Virus genome (UHGV): UHGV-1374573
DNA length: 45,706 nucleotides
Direction: 5' to 3' (one strand)
From: a virus
Position 1 is the first letter of the stretch; each line of letters begins with the position of its first letter. Below are positions 1 through 8,989 of the stretch, one piece after another. A program made the translations under genes and the position numbers. The notes below the pieces were generated by a model. That model made no database searches, had not been told where the DNA came from, and saw only the letters and a list, made by a program, of their open reading frames with translations.

Positions 1-1011
1 ATCAGCTACAATATATTCAGGTAAATGACCGTAGGTCTCTTGAATTGAATTTAAAAATGGTATCATCGTTCTTGTATCAGTCGGATTTTGATACACATTA
101 TAAGATAAAACGAATTGAGAATTTGTCGCTATTTGTAAATTATAACCTGGCTTGAGTTGTCCATTTTTCATATGATCTTCTTTCATTCTCATAAATGTGG
201 CATCATGATCTGTTTTAGAATAACTATTTCTATCCTTTAAAATAGATTTTTGGACGTCGTATTTATGCTTTCGCCCAGAGTAATCATTAATTTGCTTTTT
301 ATATTGTTTAATTTTAGTTCTTTTGAGCCGTATTTGTTTTCTTATTTTAGTACATTTTTCATTATCGATATGTTGATTTAAATCTTCGATTTCTTTATCC
401 AAATGACTACCAATCAAATCTATTTCTTCCTTTGTTAAGTCATTATCGTGATCTTTTTTAATCTCAGGTATGATTTTATTTGTTACCAATTCATGATAGA
501 GTGCTTTAGAATCTTCATTCATCTTTGTCTCATGGTTTTGAATACTCTTTTTCCATACAAATGTATATCGATTGGCATTCGCCTCAACTTTCGTACCATC
601 AATAAAAATGGTTTGATCATCTATAAGATGTTGTTTCAAACACTGACTATGAAATTGAATAAATAATGATTCTAATAAAGCATCTACTTTTGGATTGACT
701 CTAAATCGATTAATCGTTTTATAAGAAGGCTTTTGATTTTGTGATAACCACATCATCCGGATGCTATCATTAAGTAATTTTTCTATCTTACGTCCTGAAA
801 ACACAGATTGTGTGTAGGCATATAGAATGACTTTTAACATCATTTTGGGATGGTACGAGGTTGCACCACGATGATGTCTGAATTCATCGAATTCAGTTTT
901 AGGAATTGTTTCTACAATATCATTGACATGTCGTGAAATATCATTTGTGGGGATAAGAACTGAAGTTTCCAATGGTAGAGTAAGTTGAGTCATGTTATAA
1001 TCTTTATACAT
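1..1011 (-). CDS. IS1182-family DDE transposase, N-terminal 337 codons (ATG at 1011). The ORF runs off the window start and continues in frame at 45706..45047
   Basis: The reverse-complement translation is [41 protein letters not shown]...PEYIVAD. A GAGGTG RBS lies 7 nt upstream of the ATG. The ORF is still open at window position 1, which is why it is absent from the ORF track. Confidence 0.8.
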
Positions 1012-1217
1012 AAGGCACCTCGTTAATTTAGTTTAGTGACGTTTATTAAATTATACGAAAGTGCCTTATTTTTTTAAAGTATTTCAATGTAAAATTACAT
1101 ATAAATACAAAGTATTTTGGCGAGACTCTTGAGGGAACAGGACAAGCTGAAGACTACAGGCTGAAGCTGTCCCCTAAGAAAGCGAGCCAACAATACGGAG
1201 TATTGTAAATAAAGAAG

Positions 1218-1251
1218 CCAGTAAATGAATTTGTTAAAACTCATTTACTGG
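1218..1251 (-). terminator. Perfect 11-bp stem-loop (CCAGTAAATGA/TCATTTACTGG, 12-nt loop) in the IS leader, followed on the minus strand by a T-rich tract. Likely a read-through barrier upstream of tnp
   Basis: Inverted repeat read directly from the sequence. IS elements commonly carry such terminators inside their ends. Confidence 0.4.
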
Positions 1252-5598: not shown

Positions 5599-7401
5599 TT
5601 ATCTATATTTATCTCTGATATAATACATACCTTTTAATCCTACTTTTTTGTATAAACTGTTTATTGTTGTTGCTTGGAAATTACACCACTCAATAGCAGT
5701 AGCGTACTGCATACGACCTGGATTTTTAGGGTTCCAACGCATTCGATATAAAGTATTCTTTCCTTTATTAAAGAATTGTTTTCTAACGAACTTAGCGCCA
5801 CCTATAATACCGTTACGTGGACTCGTCCAACCTTGTCGTTTGGCGTATGCTATAGAAGCATTAGGGTTATTGTCATATGCTGCAATACCAAAGTAGTTAT
5901 AAATACCATAACGTCCACTAGCAAAGTTACTACGTCCATATCCACTCTCTAAGAATGCGTGAGCAATTAAATATATTTCGTTAACGTTGTATTTCTTACA
6001 ACCGTCTGCGAAAGCTTTACCTTGACCGGATAAAGTACCTTTACCTTTAAGTATCTTATTCAACTTACTTACTGGTATACCTTGATACTTACCTAAATCC
6101 AACATTTGATACCTTTGTACTGAACTATTCCATATAGTGTTAGGGTTCATATACTTACTTGTTTGTGACCTAGAAGCATTGCCCCAACCCCAACTGTAAG
6201 ATTTTTGAGGCATACCATGTGCCATTTGCGCGTTCAGTGCTTGTTGGAAAGTATATTTACTTTTCTCTACAACTACACGAGGTTTATTCGAAGTTCTGTT
6301 TGTTGTTTTGCTTTTTTTGTCTGTCGGTTTGTCGTTCTGTTCAGGGTTATCGACCGAAGTTTTAGGTTTAATCTTTATGGTTGTCTTTGTAGTTGTTGTG
6401 GTAATCGTTTCTGTGAGTAATTTATCTCTTTTTAAATATAAACCTATTATTTTCTTTTCAACTTCTTTATATTTACTTTCATCAGGAATACCGTTTTTGA
6501 TTAAGTCGTAATTAATTAAATCTTTCATAGAACGCCATATATTAGGGTCTGCTTTGATTGATGATTCAGATAGTTTTACCTTACTCCAACTTAGCAACCA
6601 AACGCCGTAGATTAACGCTCTGATTTGATTGAGCATGAATTGCCGTTTACTCTCTGTTTGTCCTCCACAAACTTCCATAACAAGCCAACCTGGATGTTCT
6701 GGCGCTTCTTCTGAATCAGGTCTAGGCGTCCATACACGCTCACGGTCTATATATACATGAGGGTATTCATCCTCATTTACATATTTATTACGTTGTAAAT
6801 ATAATTCTTCAACAGAACGCATATGTGTACTCTCTTTGATATATATACCTTTTACTTTCCCTATCAACTTTTGACCTTCAACCATATAATGATAAATGTA
6901 CTCCAAATCATCGTCTAAATCATATGCGAATGATGTATAGGAAACTTTAGTAACCTCTTTGGTTATAGGTTTCGTTTGTTCTTTTTTGTTTTTAGGAGTG
7001 TTGTCATTAGAGGGTTTAGACGGTGTGTTACTTGATTTAGATGGTTTCTTAGTTTCTGCATGATAAGGAGGTCTGACGAACCCACTTATACCATAGTATG
7101 TGTGTTTTTCTAACGAACCAGGAGAACCGGTATAACCGTTGGAATTTCGCCAATTTTGGTCCACACTGGTGAAGTAACTCTTGTTAGATGGACCTACTAC
7201 AACAGCTGTATGTCCTGTACCATTATTATAGGAACCCTTTCCCCAAACTGCCATGTCACCAGGTTTCGGAACAAAGTTTCTAGTATTTCTATAAAATTTA
7301 AATCCTCTAGGGTATCTATACCATGCCATAGCTATAGCGTTTCCTGTTGTTTTAAAATGCCAATATCTATTGAAAATGTAGTTTGGTAAATCCCAACATT
7401 G
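5599..7401 (-). CDS. Tail-associated peptidoglycan hydrolase (CHAP + GH73 glucosaminidase), exon 2. Spliced product is 636 aa
   Basis: The frame is open upstream of the annotated ATG at 7329 as far as 7401 and encodes QCWDLPNYIFNRYWHFKTTGNAIA, the CHAP catalytic-Cys motif, with no in-frame start codon. The C-terminus is GH73-like (YLIAHAFLESGYG...). Ends at the stop at 5599. Confidence 0.8.
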   Translation of the reverse strand, partial: QCWDLPNYIFNRYWHFKTTGNAIAMAWYRYPRGFKFYRNTRNFVPKPGDMAVWGKGSYNNGTGHTAVVVGPSNKSYFTSVDQNWRNSNGYTGSPGSLEKHTYYGISGFVRPPYHAETKKPSKSSNTPSKPSNDNTPKNKKEQTKPITKEVTKVSYTSFAYDLDDDLEYIYHYMVEGQKLIGKVKGIYIKESTHMRSVEELYLQRNKYVNEDEYPHVYIDRERVWTPRPDSEEAPEHPGWLVMEVCGGQTESKRQFMLNQIRALIYGVWLLSWSKVKLSESSIKADPNIWRSMKDLINYDLIKNGIPDESKYKEVEKKIIGLYLKRDKLLTETITTTTTKTTIKIKPKTSVDNPEQNDKPTDKKSKTTNRTSNKPRVVVEKSKYTFQQALNAQMAHGMPQKSYSWGWGNASRSQTSKYMNPNTIWNSSVQRYQMLDLGKYQGIPVSKLNKILKGKGTLSGQGKAFADGCKKYNVNEIYLIAHAFLESGYGRSNFASGRYGIYNYFGIAAYDNNPNASIAYAKRQGWTSPRNGIIGGAKFVRKQFFNKGKNTLYRMRWNPKNPGRMQYATAIEWCNFQATTINSLYKKVGLKGMYYIRDKYR

Positions 7402-8384
7402 CGTTTGTATTTAACTTAACGCCTTTCCCCGCATTAATTTCTTAATACGCTTGTGTAACGTTAAATTGCTCTATAAAAAGAGCCTCATGCTTTCACATGA
7501 GACTAGACTATATCTTAATATTCATTTTTAGCTTTTTTATAAGCTAAGTGTGCTTCTTCTGCAGTTTCATAAACACCTAAGTATATAAATTTCTTGTTTT
7601 TGTAAAGCTGCGCTTGATATTTGTTTAGATGTGGTTTGTAAGTTACTCCTGTATATCCTGTCTTATTATGATATTTTCGTCGATTGTTTGCATTTTCTTC
7701 ATGACTAACCCATCTGCAATTTGATGGTTTATAATCGTCATCGTTGTTAATTCTGTCTAATTCAGCACCTTCGAATGGTACATCCCCCATATCTTTGTAG
7801 AATTGCATAAAGTCATCTTTCCACTCATCACAAACCTTTATACCTCTACCGCCATATGCGCTGTAAAAATCATAGTTAGAGTTGTAACATCGTTGCTTCA
7901 TACCTTTCCATTTATTATAAATTAAAGTTCCAGTCATACCATGTTTTTTAGAATGACTAACTTTATTCAAACAACCACAACTTTTAGAATAACCATTTTT
8001 CACTTCGGTACCAATCATTATTTTTTCATTACCGCATCTCGTACAGTAACATTTATATAGTTTCTTTTTATGTTTATTTCTGCCATAAAACTCTAGAACT
8101 TTAAGATAATTAAACTGCATTCCTACAATGTCCATTTGACCGCTCCTTATCAATCGTCAAATACATTGTATCACACATGAATATTTAATGCACTGCCTAT
8201 CAATTGATAGTACATAGTCGTTGAAGCTTCCTCTACTATTACCATAGAGGCTTGCCTGCTGATTGCCCAATCCTTAATATTTTTTAACTTTCACGCTTAC
8301 CGTTACCAGTTACGTTGTAGTTATTAAGGTTCTAAGGGTGTCCCAGCAATTCACATTATTTTTTTACATGGAACCCATTAATTA
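7402..8384 (-). mobile_element. Group I intron (983 nt) interrupting the virion-hydrolase gene and carrying an HNH homing endonuclease ORF
   Basis: Exon 1 ends ...GGAGCU. Intron nt 10-15 (GGUUCC) can pair with it as a 6-bp P1 helix, with U.G at the splice site. The intron ends in G (..ACAAACG|CAATGTTGG). Joining the exons restores ...VDVDGYYGA-QCWDLPNY..., a contiguous CHAP N-terminus. The HEG lies within the intron at 7515-8153. Confidence 0.75.
7515..8153 (-). CDS. Intron-encoded HNH homing endonuclease (Zn-finger-like CxxC/CxC N-terminus, HNH_3 motif, AP2-like DNA-binding C-terminus)
   Basis: 212 aa. ELDRINNDDDYKPSNCRWVSHEENANN is an HNH_3 motif. YTGVTYKPHLNKYQAQLYKNKKFIYLGVYETAEEAHLAYKKA resembles an AP2 domain. 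It is a paralog of 22297-22980. Confidence 0.75.
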   Translation of the reverse strand: MIRSGQMDIVGMQFNYLKVLEFYGRNKHKKKLYKCYCTRCGNEKIMIGTEVKNGYSKSCGCLNKVSHSKKHGMTGTLIYNKWKGMKQRCYNSNYDFYSAYGGRGIKVCDEWKDDFMQFYKDMGDVPFEGAELDRINNDDDYKPSNCRWVSHEENANNRRKYHNKTGYTGVTYKPHLNKYQAQLYKNKKFIYLGVYETAEEAHLAYKKAKNEY

Positions 8385-8492
8385 AGCTCCATAATAACCA
8401 TCTACATCAACTCTTCTGCCAATCATCCTTTTTGCCCATGCTGCAACTTCCGAAGCAGTAGGTTTTCTTTTTTTAGGGCTAGGTAATCCCAT
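8385..8492 (-). CDS. Tail-associated peptidoglycan hydrolase, exon 1 (36 codons, MGLPSPKKRKPTASEVAAWAKRMIGRRVDVDGYYGA)
   Basis: ATG at 8492 with a GAGGTGG RBS. The ORF ends in TAA right after the 5' splice site. Confidence 0.75.
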
Positions 8493-8542
8493 ATATCCAC
8501 CTCATTTCTGGCATAATAAAAAGTCGATACATAAGTACCGAC

Positions 8543-8989
8543 TTAGTTTCCAAATAGCAAAGGGGCAATTACTTTACTTAGTGTTTCTAATAGTGCGAAT
8601 GCACCTACAAGTATAGCGCCTAAAGTTTTATTAGATAATTTCCTTTCTTCCAATATAAATTGCTTATCTTCAATCTTGCTATCTAATGTTTTTCTGATAT
8701 CCCTTACTTCTTCGTTAACTTCTTCAAAACGCCTATTTGTATTAGAATTTGATTGCCTCAACTCTTTCACAAGTCCTTCTATGCTATTCGCCATTCTATC
8801 CGTATTTTTTTCAGTGTTAGCAGATGTACCTTTTAATTCTGTAATAACTTGTATCGTTTCCGTATATCTATCGTCATGTTTTTCATCAACTTTGTATAAC
8901 TTTTCAGTCGTTTTATCTATATTAGTTTCGGCTTTATCCATACGTTTTTCTAAGCTAGTAATTCTTTGTTCTTCTATTGTTTTTTGCAT
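8543..8989 (-). CDS. XhlA-like protein: coiled coil plus a C-terminal transmembrane anchor
   Basis: 148 aa, charged and coiled-coil over most of its length. C-terminal TM segment TLGAILVGAFALLETLSKVIAPLLFG. Confidence 0.5.
   Translation of the reverse strand: MQKTIEEQRITSLEKRMDKAETNIDKTTEKLYKVDEKHDDRYTETIQVITELKGTSANTEKNTDRMANSIEGLVKELRQSNSNTNRRFEEVNEEVRDIRKTLDSKIEDKQFILEERKLSNKTLGAILVGAFALLETLSKVIAPLLFGN

What the first reader, a model, noticed from the sequence alone, without database searches (positions are those of the whole stretch)
7402..8384. Group I intron with an HNH homing endonuclease splitting the tail-associated CHAP-glucosaminidase hydrolase gene
The annotated 576-aa ORF begins after the CHAP catalytic cysteine. 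Its frame is open 72 nt further upstream (QCWDLPNYIFNRYW...) with no start codon. The true N-terminus (MGLPSPKKRKPTASEV...GYYGA) lies 1 kb upstream at 8492-8385 and runs straight into a stop. Exon 1 ends GGAGCU, which base-pairs with intron nt 10-15 (GGUUCC) to give a P1 helix with the obligate U.G pair. The intervening 983 nt end in G immediately before CAA-TGT-TGG and contain a 212-aa HNH-AP2 endonuclease ORF. Splicing restores a 636-aa hydrolase. The virion-associated murein hydrolase is essential for infection, so the phage depends on ribozyme activity for infectivity.
Basis: partly seen in the sequence, partly recalled or inferred. Interest (0 to 1): 0.75.

Follow-up and report, generated by a model that had tools for sequence, protein, structure and literature searches.

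The report
Group I intron splitting phage hydrolase gene

Summary
On the minus strand a 36-codon exon (8492..8385) and a 1803-nt exon (7401..5599) are separated by 983 nt (8384..7402). Removing them gives a 636-aa CHAP-glucosaminidase that is 96.5% identical, without gaps, to the uninterrupted hydrolase of phage CNPx. The insert is a group I intron. A region-limited Rfam scan gives E=1.8e-8, the ORF-less homologue in phage DW2 scores 80 bits, and a nine-sequence alignment shows 97.8% pairing with 51 of 81 pairs compensated. A 206-aa ORF sits in the P8 loop. Its AP2 domain is solid. Its "HNH" domain is only weakly supported, because the canonical first His is an invariant Arg.

The kind is known. 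The same genus has a different, in-vivo-spliced intron 6 nt downstream (PH15), and DW2's copy of this intron was proposed in 2014. "Essential for infectivity" is overstated.

Two things are new here. This ORF-bearing copy goes unannotated in its nearest relatives. The intron/ORF lineage also recurs at the CHAP Gln-Cys codons of tail hydrolases and endolysins in staphylococcal and streptococcal phages.

Verdict: supported, a new member of a known kind, modest interest.

The parts
8385..8492 (-). Exon 1 of the tail-associated hydrolase (36 codons, MGLPSPKK...DVDGYYGA). Its last 8 nt, AUGGAGCU (8392..8385), form the 5' strand of P1.
   Evidence: Identical in register to codons 1-36 of the CNPx hydrolase.
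7402..8384 (-). Group I intron, 983 nt. It begins UAAUUAAUGGGUUCC and ends ...ACAAACG (terminal G).
   Evidence: Boundaries come from intron-less alleles. Rfam RF00028 hits 8394..8140 (40.2 bits, E 1.8e-8) and 7518..7486 (21.3 bits). Covariation.
8177..8384 (-). 5' ribozyme half. P1 3' strand / guide sequence 8376..8368. P3 8358..8352. P4 8348..8343 with 8262..8257. P5 and extensions 8338..8266, including a GUAA-capped hairpin at 8310..8299. P6 8256..8225. P7 5' strand 8221..8215. P7.1 hairpin 8210..8197. P3 3' strand 8192..8186. P8 5' strand 8185..8177.
   Evidence: Coordinates. Helices recovered by RNAalifold. Pair counts.
7515..8135 (-). Intron ORF in the P8 loop, 206 aa from ATG 8135 (the mechanical TTG start at 8153 gives 212 aa). 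It has an N-terminal Cys-rich strand region, a central HNH-like region (ELDRINNDDDYKPSNCRWVSHEENANN) and a C-terminal AP2 domain (res 159-206). RBS AAGGAG at 8148..8143. An extended -10-like TGATACAAT lies at 8173..8165.
   Evidence: dN/dS 0.024 against the S. aureus copy.
7402..7525 (-). 3' ribozyme half. P8 3' strand 7525..7517, which overlaps the last ORF codons and the stop. J8/7 and P7 3' strand 7512..7505. P9 GAAA hairpin 7501..7484. P9.1 7483..7468. P9.2 7467..7413. Terminal G at 7402.
5599..7401 (-). Exon 2 of the hydrolase. It starts CAA UGU UGG (Gln-Cys-Trp; the Cys is the CHAP nucleophile) and includes the rest of CHAP, the linker and the glucosaminidase domain.

Best explanation
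The 983 nt at 8384..7402 (minus strand) are a mobile group I intron of subgroup IA type. It has no P2, a single P7.1 hairpin and P9.1/P9.2 extensions. It is inserted in phase 0 between the Ala36 and Gln37 codons of the tail-associated CHAP-glucosaminidase gene of a Rockefellervirus-like S. epidermidis prophage, two codons before the catalytic Cys.

Inferred mechanism, following the established group I pathway:
1. The pre-mRNA folds into the P3-P9 core.
2. Exon 1 (..AUGGAGCU) pairs with the internal guide GGGUUCCAU, giving a U.G pair at the cleavage site.
3. An external guanosine bound at the G-C pair of P7 attacks after that U.
4. The terminal G (7402) then replaces it, and the exons are ligated to GGAGCU|CAAUGU.
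5. The result is an mRNA for a 636-aa hydrolase with an intact Gln-Cys active site.

Unspliced RNA can give only a 36-aa peptide. Perhaps it also gives a Cys-less 576-aa product from the internal AUG.

The 206-aa protein encoded in the P8 loop has a Cys-rich region, a non-canonical HNH-like region and an AP2 DNA-binding domain. It is most likely the homing endonuclease that cuts or nicks intron-less alleles (GGCGCC CAGTGT) during co-infection or prophage-phage encounters, so that repair copies in the intron together with a few flanking exon bases.

What is shown: the boundaries, the fold with covariation, the restored reading frame, and purifying selection on the ORF. What is inferred: splicing itself, nuclease activity and homing.
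For: - Junction: the intron-less CNPx allele reads GGCGCC|CAGTGTTGGGAT, and the in-silico spliced product is 636 aa, 96.5% identical and gap-free over 636 aa.
- RNA family: Rfam Intron_gpI 40.2 bits, E 1.8e-8, over P1-P8, plus 21.3 bits over J8/7-P9. The ORF-less homologue at the same site in DW2 (about 91% identical in the ribozyme parts) scores 80.1 bits, above gathering. All seven fetched relatives are Rfam group I hits.
- Structure: on nine P8-trimmed relatives RNAalifold recovers P1, P3, P4, P5, P6, P7.1, P8, P9, P9.1 and P9.2. With P7 added, 97.8% of cells pair against 35-45% when partners are slid. 51 of 81 pairs have compensatory changes. 0 of 500 shuffles reach any measure. P4 and P7 are invariant, and the splice-site U.G is kept in 8 of 9 sequences.
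- Exon-intron co-variation: the third-codon bases at -4, -1 and +3 (GGA GCT|CAA versus GGC GCC CAG) segregate perfectly with presence of this intron among eight alleles. The U at -1 and A at -4 are exactly the bases needed for P1.
- Viability: 98% identical copies occur in the phage records BE28 and PG-2021_93.
- Precedent: PH15, in the same genus, has its hydrolase annotated as a joined CDS, and both of its introns were reported to splice in vivo.
Against: - No RNA data exist for this intron. Splicing is inferred.
- The window hit is below Rfam's gathering score (40.2 against 50), and both whole-window scans missed it. This is explained by the 651-nt ORF-containing loop in P8.
- P10 is weak, with about 2 bp readable in the sequence.
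- The ORF matches no Pfam HNH model, and none of the 120 listed homologues has a precomputed Pfam HNH domain. The profile match to I-HmuI is not significant (E 0.78). The first His of the HNH motif is an invariant Arg. Nuclease activity is therefore unproven.
- The three exon differences could reflect selection for P1 pairing rather than co-conversion by homing.
Confidence: 0.9

Rival explanations
1. The RNA is a functional self-splicing intron, but the P8-loop protein is not, or is no longer, a DNA endonuclease. It could be a DNA- or RNA-binding protein (AP2 plus zinc ribbon) acting as a maturase or regulator. In that case the intron now spreads only by ordinary recombination between phages.
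For: No Pfam HNH hit. NCBI names the family only 'AP2 domain-containing protein'. The general-base His is replaced by an invariant Arg128. The I-HmuI profile match is E 0.78. The best fold matches are all AP2 domains.
Against: - Strong purifying selection (dN/dS 0.024).
- The family is very large and patchily distributed in phages: 1366 phage records and 5415 proteins.
- It is tightly associated with intron loops and with one target motif.
- N139 is invariant and N151 nearly invariant, at the HNH Asn positions, and Y135 is invariant.
- PHROG groups the ORF with HNH endonucleases.
Confidence: 0.15
2. The intron is a dead relic in a defective prophage. It no longer splices, and the hydrolase gene is a pseudogene or yields only a truncated, Cys-less 576-aa protein.
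For: There is no direct splicing evidence. The window looks like an integrated prophage, since phage homology starts at about 1278. The phi11 homologue is reported to be dispensable for replication, so loss would be tolerated.
Against: - Every core helix is intact, and all conserved single-stranded core motifs (J3/4 AAU, J6/7, J8/7 GAUAUAGUC, P7 with bulge) match the invariant columns.
- Both exons are open and 96.5% identical to an intact allele, with no frameshift.
- Near-identical copies are carried by the phage records BE28 and PG-2021_93.
- The exon bases needed for P1 are maintained.
Confidence: 0.05
3. There is no intron. A free-standing homing-endonuclease gene cassette has inserted and split the hydrolase into two separately translated polypeptides that reassemble, as in some HEG-split phage genes.
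For: BE28 is annotated in just this way, as separate CDSs. A 2026 preprint describes HNH insertions that interrupt lysis genes in the Sb-1 lineage.
Against: - The flanks of the ORF fold into a complete, covarying group I core.
- Exon 2 has no start codon or RBS at the junction. The first AUG is 24 codons past the catalytic Cys.
- The ORF-less DW2 copy keeps the same 5' and 3' RNA halves.
Confidence: 0.02

Closest known systems
[quoted passage not shown] 2014, PMC4124061)
   Same: It is the same intron lineage at the same codon boundary (GGTGCT|CAATGT). It is about 91% identical over the ribozyme parts and has the same helices. It passes Rfam gathering at 80.1 bits.
   Different: DW2's copy has no ORF. 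Its P8 loop is 22 nt, against 651 nt here. Its host is an S. aureus Phietavirus, and its hydrolase is only 61% identical. Splicing was never shown there either. An ORF-bearing S. aureus copy also exists (L016).
Hydrolase intron of S. epidermidis phages PH15, phiIPLA5 and E72 (Daniel et al. 2007 as cited in PMC7235722; Fisarova et al. 2021, PMC8125051)
   Same: Same gene and same phage genus (Rockefellervirus). It is a group I intron in phase 0 next to the catalytic Cys codon. PH15 and E72 are annotated as joined CDSs. In vivo splicing is reported for both PH15 introns.
   Different: It is a different intron: 246 nt, ORF-less, with P7.1 and P7.2, scoring 93.8 bits. It is inserted 6 nt downstream, after the Cys codon (CAGTGT|TGG).
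Group I introns with homing-endonuclease ORFs in staphylococcal phage genes (phage K lysK intron with the ksaI endonuclease; Twort nrdE-I2; endolysin introns in 20 of 205 phages)
   Same: Self-splicing intron plus intron-encoded endonuclease gene interrupting a cell-wall hydrolase or DNA-metabolism gene at a conserved site. DW2's intron shows partial identity to Twort nrdE-I2.
   Different: Different host genes and insertion sites. Here the target is the virion-associated tail hydrolase, and the ORF is an AP2-containing protein lacking the canonical HNH His.
HNH-AP2 homing endonucleases (from memory: Magnani et al. 2004; phage and cyanobacterial examples)
   Same: An endonuclease-type N-terminal part fused to a C-terminal AP2 DNA-binding domain, encoded in mobile elements.
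   Different: The HNH-like motif here is DR..Y...N.RW......N, with Arg in place of the first His. No Pfam HNH model matches.

Membership tests
Group I intron (Rfam RF00028) | P1 helix between the end of exon 1 and an internal guide sequence, with a U.G wobble at the 5' splice site | tested here: met
   AUGGAGCU (8392..8385) pairs with GGGUUCCAU (8376..8368), and U(-1) pairs with G10. The U.G is conserved in 8 of 9 relatives. The exon bases at -1 and -4 co-vary with intron presence.
Group I intron (Rfam RF00028) | Terminal G at the 3' end of the intron, with exon ligation restoring the reading frame | tested here: met
   The intron ends ...ACAAACG at 7402. The ligated exons give 636 aa, collinear with the intron-less CNPx allele.
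Group I intron (Rfam RF00028) | Conserved core P3-P4-P5-P6-P7-P8 with the P3/P7 pseudoknot, supported by covariation | tested here: met
   RNAalifold and pair counting give 97.8% paired cells, 51 of 81 compensated pairs and 0 of 500 shuffles. Five of the 7 P3 pairs have compensatory (both-side) changes, one changes on one side only (G-C to G-U) and one never varies. P4 and P7 are invariant.
Group I intron (Rfam RF00028) | Guanosine-binding site: a G-C pair in P7 next to a bulged nucleotide | tested here: met
   A-U, bulged C, then G-C, A-U, C-G, U-A, A-U (8221..8215 with 7512..7505), invariant in all 9 sequences. Binding itself cannot be tested here.
Group I intron (Rfam RF00028) | Score at or above Rfam's gathering cut-off (50 bits) | tested here: inconclusive
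   The window scores 40.2 bits (E 1.8e-8) plus a separate 21.3-bit 3' hit, because the 651-nt ORF-containing P8 loop splits the model. Whole-window scans missed it. The ORF-less homologue DW2 scores 80.1 bits.
Group I intron (Rfam RF00028) | Self-splicing shown in vitro or in vivo | not testable with these tools
   There are no RNA data. The only precedent is the neighbouring PH15 intron, reported to splice in vivo.
HNH (His-Me finger) homing endonuclease | Match to curated HNH sequence models | tested here: not met
   Pfam finds only AP2, even at E<=10. NCBIfam finds nothing. None of the 120 listed homologues has a precomputed Pfam HNH domain. Only PHROG 374, labelled 'HNH endonuclease', matches (E 9e-83).
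HNH (His-Me finger) homing endonuclease | Catalytic H...N...H/N residues on a beta-beta-alpha-metal fold | tested here: inconclusive
HNH (His-Me finger) homing endonuclease | Site-specific cleavage of the intron-less allele and super-Mendelian inheritance | not testable with these tools
   Only indirect evidence exists: patchy distribution among near-identical phages, intron-linked exon markers and purifying selection.
AP2/ERF DNA-binding domain (PF00847) | Pfam gathering score and a three-strand-plus-helix fold | tested here: met
Virion/tail-associated CHAP-glucosaminidase hydrolase (phi11 gp49 / HydH5 type) | N-terminal CHAP domain with a Cys nucleophile, a C-terminal glucosaminidase domain, and a gene located in the tail/baseplate module | tested here: met
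   The spliced protein matches CHAP (E 2.8e-9, res 31-119) and Glucosaminidase (E 9e-12, res 498-619). It is 96.5% identical to CNPx gp24, 'tail associated cell-wall hydrolase'. It is flanked by tail-fibre, XkdX and DUF2951 genes in relatives.

The most novel reading that the evidence does not exclude
This intron and its AP2-containing ORF belong to a lineage specialised on one protein motif rather than one gene: the DNA encoding the CHAP active site (..Y-G-x|Q-C..).

Related copies sit at that boundary or within a few bases of it in:
- tail hydrolases of S. epidermidis, S. aureus and S. hominis phages;
- endolysins of staphylococcal phages (SEP9, Lacachita, OPT-SC01);
- CHAP lysins of streptococcal phages.

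This implies repeated jumps between functionally different genes and between genera. The jumps would be driven by an endonuclease with a non-canonical HNH-like site (Arg in place of the general-base His, with an invariant Tyr as in PacI). Together with the unrelated PH15-type intron 6 nt away, the Gln-Cys codons of CHAP would be a hotspot colonised independently by several introns.
Probability: 0.45. Interest if true: 0.45.

Novelty: new member of a known kind. Interest (0 to 1): 0.3.

Why it matters
**Annotation.** The true product is a 636-aa hydrolase with an intact CHAP active site. Closest relatives such as BE28 list instead a 36-aa 'hypothetical protein' plus a truncated hydrolase, along with a spurious ORF inside the ribozyme. 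This matters for people who clone staphylococcal virion-associated hydrolases as enzybiotics. The DW2 study expressed a truncated protein with low activity for just this reason.

**Biology.** It adds an endonuclease-bearing member to the introns known in this gene. It also shows two unrelated introns flanking the catalytic Gln-Cys codons. This fits the established rule that mobile introns target the most conserved, active-site-coding DNA.

It does not open a new question. Splicing and homing here would follow well-understood mechanisms.

Tried and rejected
- Whole-window Rfam scans at gathering and at E<=0.1 did not report the intron. Only the region-limited scan did. Absence in a large scan is therefore not evidence against ORF-containing introns.
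- I did not build my own covariance model. A model of about 350 nt would exceed the calibration limit, so I used a MAFFT alignment of P8-trimmed introns with RNAalifold and pair counting instead. MAFFT misaligns part of P1, so P1 was also read per sequence.
- The sub-threshold Rfam hits SpF51 sRNA (7463..7509), PyrR and TP53TG1 were rejected as artefacts. SpF51 is the intron's P9/P9.1 hairpins.
- The consensus promoter scan found nothing above shuffles. The extended -10-like motif in the P8 loop is therefore only a sequence observation.
- A motif scan for a second intron or a second HNH-like ORF in the window found nothing coherent.
- Three papers could not be read: Landthaler 2002, Rodriguez-Rubio 2013 and Daniel 2007 are not held. 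Their content is cited only as reported in papers that are held.
- Intein, group II intron and translational bypass were considered and dropped. The insert starts with an in-frame stop, has a group I core and lacks any reverse-transcriptase ORF.

Full report
**Observation.** Reading the minus strand of 7200..8700 and listing ORFs confirms every sequence statement of the finding.
- A 36-codon ORF (8492..8385, MGLPSPKKRKPTASEVAAWAKRMIGRRVDVDGYYGA) runs into TAA.
- A 576-aa ORF (7329..5599) begins downstream of the CHAP cysteine. Its frame is open upstream through QCWDLPNYIFNRYW without a start codon.
- Between them lie 983 nt (8384..7402) that begin TAATTAATGGGTTCC and end ACAAACG. They contain a 212-aa mechanical ORF (8153..7515).
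- Joining 8492..8385 to 7401..5599 gives a 636-aa protein with Pfam CHAP (res 31-119) and Glucosaminidase (res 498-619) domains.

**Boundaries from intron-less alleles.** The window is a Rockefellervirus-like S. epidermidis prophage. It is 95-97% identical to phages BE28, phiIPLA5 and others from about position 1278 onward. Phage CNPx has an uninterrupted 636-aa 'tail associated cell-wall hydrolase' whose DNA reads GGTTATTATGGCGCC|CAGTGTTGGGATTTACC. The in-silico spliced product of the window is 96.5% identical to it over all 636 residues with no gap. BE28 and PG-2021_93 carry the same 983-nt insert at 98% identity. BE28 annotates it as four separate CDSs.

**It is a group I intron.**
- Rfam at gathering threshold on the whole window reports only an unrelated sRNA. 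A permissive whole-window scan also misses the intron.
- A scan limited to 7250..8550 gives Intron_gpI at 8394..8140 (40.2 bits, E 1.8e-8, model positions 1-253). A second hit at 7518..7486 (21.3 bits) covers J8/7, P7' and P9. The score falls below the 50-bit cut-off because the loop of P8 holds 651 nt.
- S. aureus phage DW2 has an ORF-less copy of the same intron at the same codon boundary, about 91% identical in the ribozyme parts. It scores 80.1 bits.
- blastn with the DW2 intron finds related sequence in 368 phage records. All seven relatives I fetched are Rfam group I hits.
- I trimmed the P8 loops of nine relatives and aligned them. RNAalifold recovered P1, P3, P4, P5, P6, P7.1, P8, P9, P9.1 and P9.2.
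- With the P7 pseudoknot added, 97.8% of cells form standard pairs, against 35-45% when partners are slid by 1-3 columns. 51 of 81 pairs show compensatory changes. None of 500 shuffles reaches the observed values on any measure.
- Five of the 7 P3 pairs show compensatory changes. P4 and P7 are invariant. P7 shows the usual A-U, bulged C, G-C arrangement of the guanosine-binding site. Helix coordinates in the window are given.
- The architecture (no P2, one P7.1 hairpin, P9.1/P9.2) looks like subgroup IA. That assignment is from memory and was not tested.

**Exon-intron co-variation.** Eight alleles were compared: three with this intron, three with the PH15-type intron and two with none. The third-codon bases at -4, -1 and +3 segregate perfectly with the presence of this intron (GGA GCT|CAA against GGC GCC CAG, or GGA GCA CAG in PH15). 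Over its first 119 exon bases, the intron-less PG-2021_91 allele differs from the window only at these three positions. U(-1) provides the U.G pair and A(-4) pairs with the guide sequence. The pattern fits either co-conversion during homing or selection for P1 pairing. The data do not separate the two.

**The intron ORF.**
- The probable start is ATG 8135, behind AAGGAG (8148..8143). This gives 206 aa, as annotated in BE28. The last codons and the stop form the 3' strand of P8.
- Pfam finds only AP2 (res 159-206, E 5e-8), just at the cut-off, and no HNH model even at E<=10. NCBIfam finds nothing. PHROG 374 'HNH endonuclease' matches at E 9e-83.
- In a 44-sequence alignment the invariant or near-invariant residues include four Cys (31, 34, 53, 55), H65, R82, W105, R128, Y135, N139 and N151. 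The motif ELDRINN...Y...NCRW......N has Arg where HNH_3 proteins have the first His.
- 'AP2' is therefore solid. 'HNH' is plausible but non-canonical and untested.
- Against the S. aureus copy (L016) the ORF has dN/dS 0.024 with saturated dS. The protein is under strong constraint.

**What is already known.**
- Keary et al. 2014 proposed that the 349-bp insert in the DW2 tail hydrolase is a group I intron, without showing splicing. They noted it carries no endonuclease gene.
- In the same genus as the window, PH15's hydrolase is deposited as a joined CDS. PH15's two introns are reported to splice in vivo (citing Daniel et al. 2007, which I could not read). [quoted passage not shown]
- The PH15 intron is a different one: 246 nt, 93.8 bits, inserted after the Cys codon (CAGTGT|TGG), 6 nt downstream of the site used here. 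It is present in 14 Staphylococcus phage records.
- Group I introns with endonuclease genes are well documented in staphylococcal endolysin genes.
- The finding is a new member of a known kind. The specific ORF-bearing copy is unannotated in its nearest relatives.

**The 'essential' claim.** The DW2 paper reports, citing Rodriguez-Rubio et al. 2013, that the homologous phi11 hydrolase is not necessary for replication but that particles lacking it are less stable. Unspliced RNA could still yield a Cys-less 576-aa protein with the glucosaminidase domain. Dependence of infectivity on the ribozyme is therefore plausible for full activity but not established.

**Wider pattern (partly followed).** Related introns sit at or next to the CHAP Gln-Cys codons in other genes.
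- Streptococcus prophage Javan446 lysin: GGAACT|CAGTGT, with a 48% identical ORF in P8.
- Streptococcal CHAP-choline-binding lysins: GGAGCT|CAATGT.
- An S. aureus prophage tail hydrolase carrying the ORF.
- An S. hominis prophage tail hydrolase, and the SEP9 and Lacachita endolysins, 2 nt upstream: GGGT|A(T/C)CAATGT and GGAT|ATCAATGC.
- A LysK-type endolysin in OPT-SC01, four codons upstream.

This suggests a lineage specialised on the CHAP active-site coding sequence. It is the most novel reading left open.

**Verdict.** The mechanism is standard group I splicing plus probable homing. Novelty is low to moderate.

Noticed in passing
L002:2823-3068 (phiIPLA5); also PH15 L012:2499-2744 and E72 L013:1501-1746: A second, unrelated ORF-less group I intron (246 nt, Rfam 93.8 bits) interrupts the same hydrolase gene 6 nt downstream, after the Cys codon (CAGTGT|TGG). 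It is found in 14 Staphylococcus phage records. PH15 and E72 annotate a joined CDS. phiIPLA5, BE01 and BE21 annotate a truncated hydrolase instead.
   Followed up: partly
L010 (Javan446), L019/L020 (streptococcal phage contigs), L016 (S. aureus), L017/L018 (S. hominis), L007 (SEP9), L011 (Lacachita), L006 (OPT-SC01): Relatives of this intron, often with the homologous AP2-containing ORF in P8, sit at or within a few bases of the CHAP Gln-Cys codons. They occur in endolysins and tail hydrolases of several staphylococcal and streptococcal phages. This suggests a lineage that targets the CHAP active-site motif across genes and genera.
   Followed up: partly
window 999-1224 (+): Rfam tsr24 (S. aureus small RNA) matches at 112 bits, E 3e-24. 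It lies just outside the stretch homologous to phage genomes, which starts at about 1278. It probably marks host DNA next to the prophage end.
   Followed up: no
window 8165-8173 (-), and the P8 loops of L006, L008, L010, L011 and L016: An extended -10-like element (TGATACAAT here; TGATATAAT, TGGTATAAT and TGCTATAAT in relatives) lies in the P8 loop upstream of the ORF. It is also present in the ORF-less PMBT8 and OPT-SC01 introns. It may be an internal promoter for the endonuclease gene. The consensus promoter scan did not flag it, as there is no -35.
   Followed up: partly
window 7463-7509 (-) and 7481-7504 (-): A sub-threshold Rfam hit to Streptococcus sRNA SpF51 and a terminator-like hairpin both correspond to the intron's P9 GAAA hairpin plus P9.1. 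They are not an sRNA or a real terminator call.
   Followed up: yes
window 8521-8544 (-): A terminator-like hairpin (10 pairs, followed by TTTATTAT) lies between the upstream gene (8989..8543) and the start of hydrolase exon 1 (8492). The hydrolase may therefore depend on read-through or on its own promoter.
   Followed up: no
window 8157-8270 (-); BE28 L001:2758-2871: A 37-aa ORF annotated as 'hypothetical protein' in BE28 lies entirely inside the ribozyme core (P5-P8). It is almost certainly not a gene. The 36-aa 'hypothetical protein' upstream of it is exon 1.
   Followed up: yes
window 7515-8135 (-) against L016:2501-3121: The intron ORF differs from the S. aureus copy at 77 of about 110 synonymous sites (dS about 2.2) but is 91% identical in protein (dN/dS 0.024). 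The flanking ribozyme RNA stays about 90% identical. ORF and ribozyme may have different histories, or the RNA is much more constrained.
   Followed up: partly
L004:2777-3125 (DW2) against L016: DW2's 22-nt P8 loop ends ...GCTATGTAAT, resembling the last bases of the ORF (...GCTAAAAAT) in the ORF-bearing S. aureus copy. DW2's intron therefore looks like an ORF-deletion derivative.
   Followed up: partly
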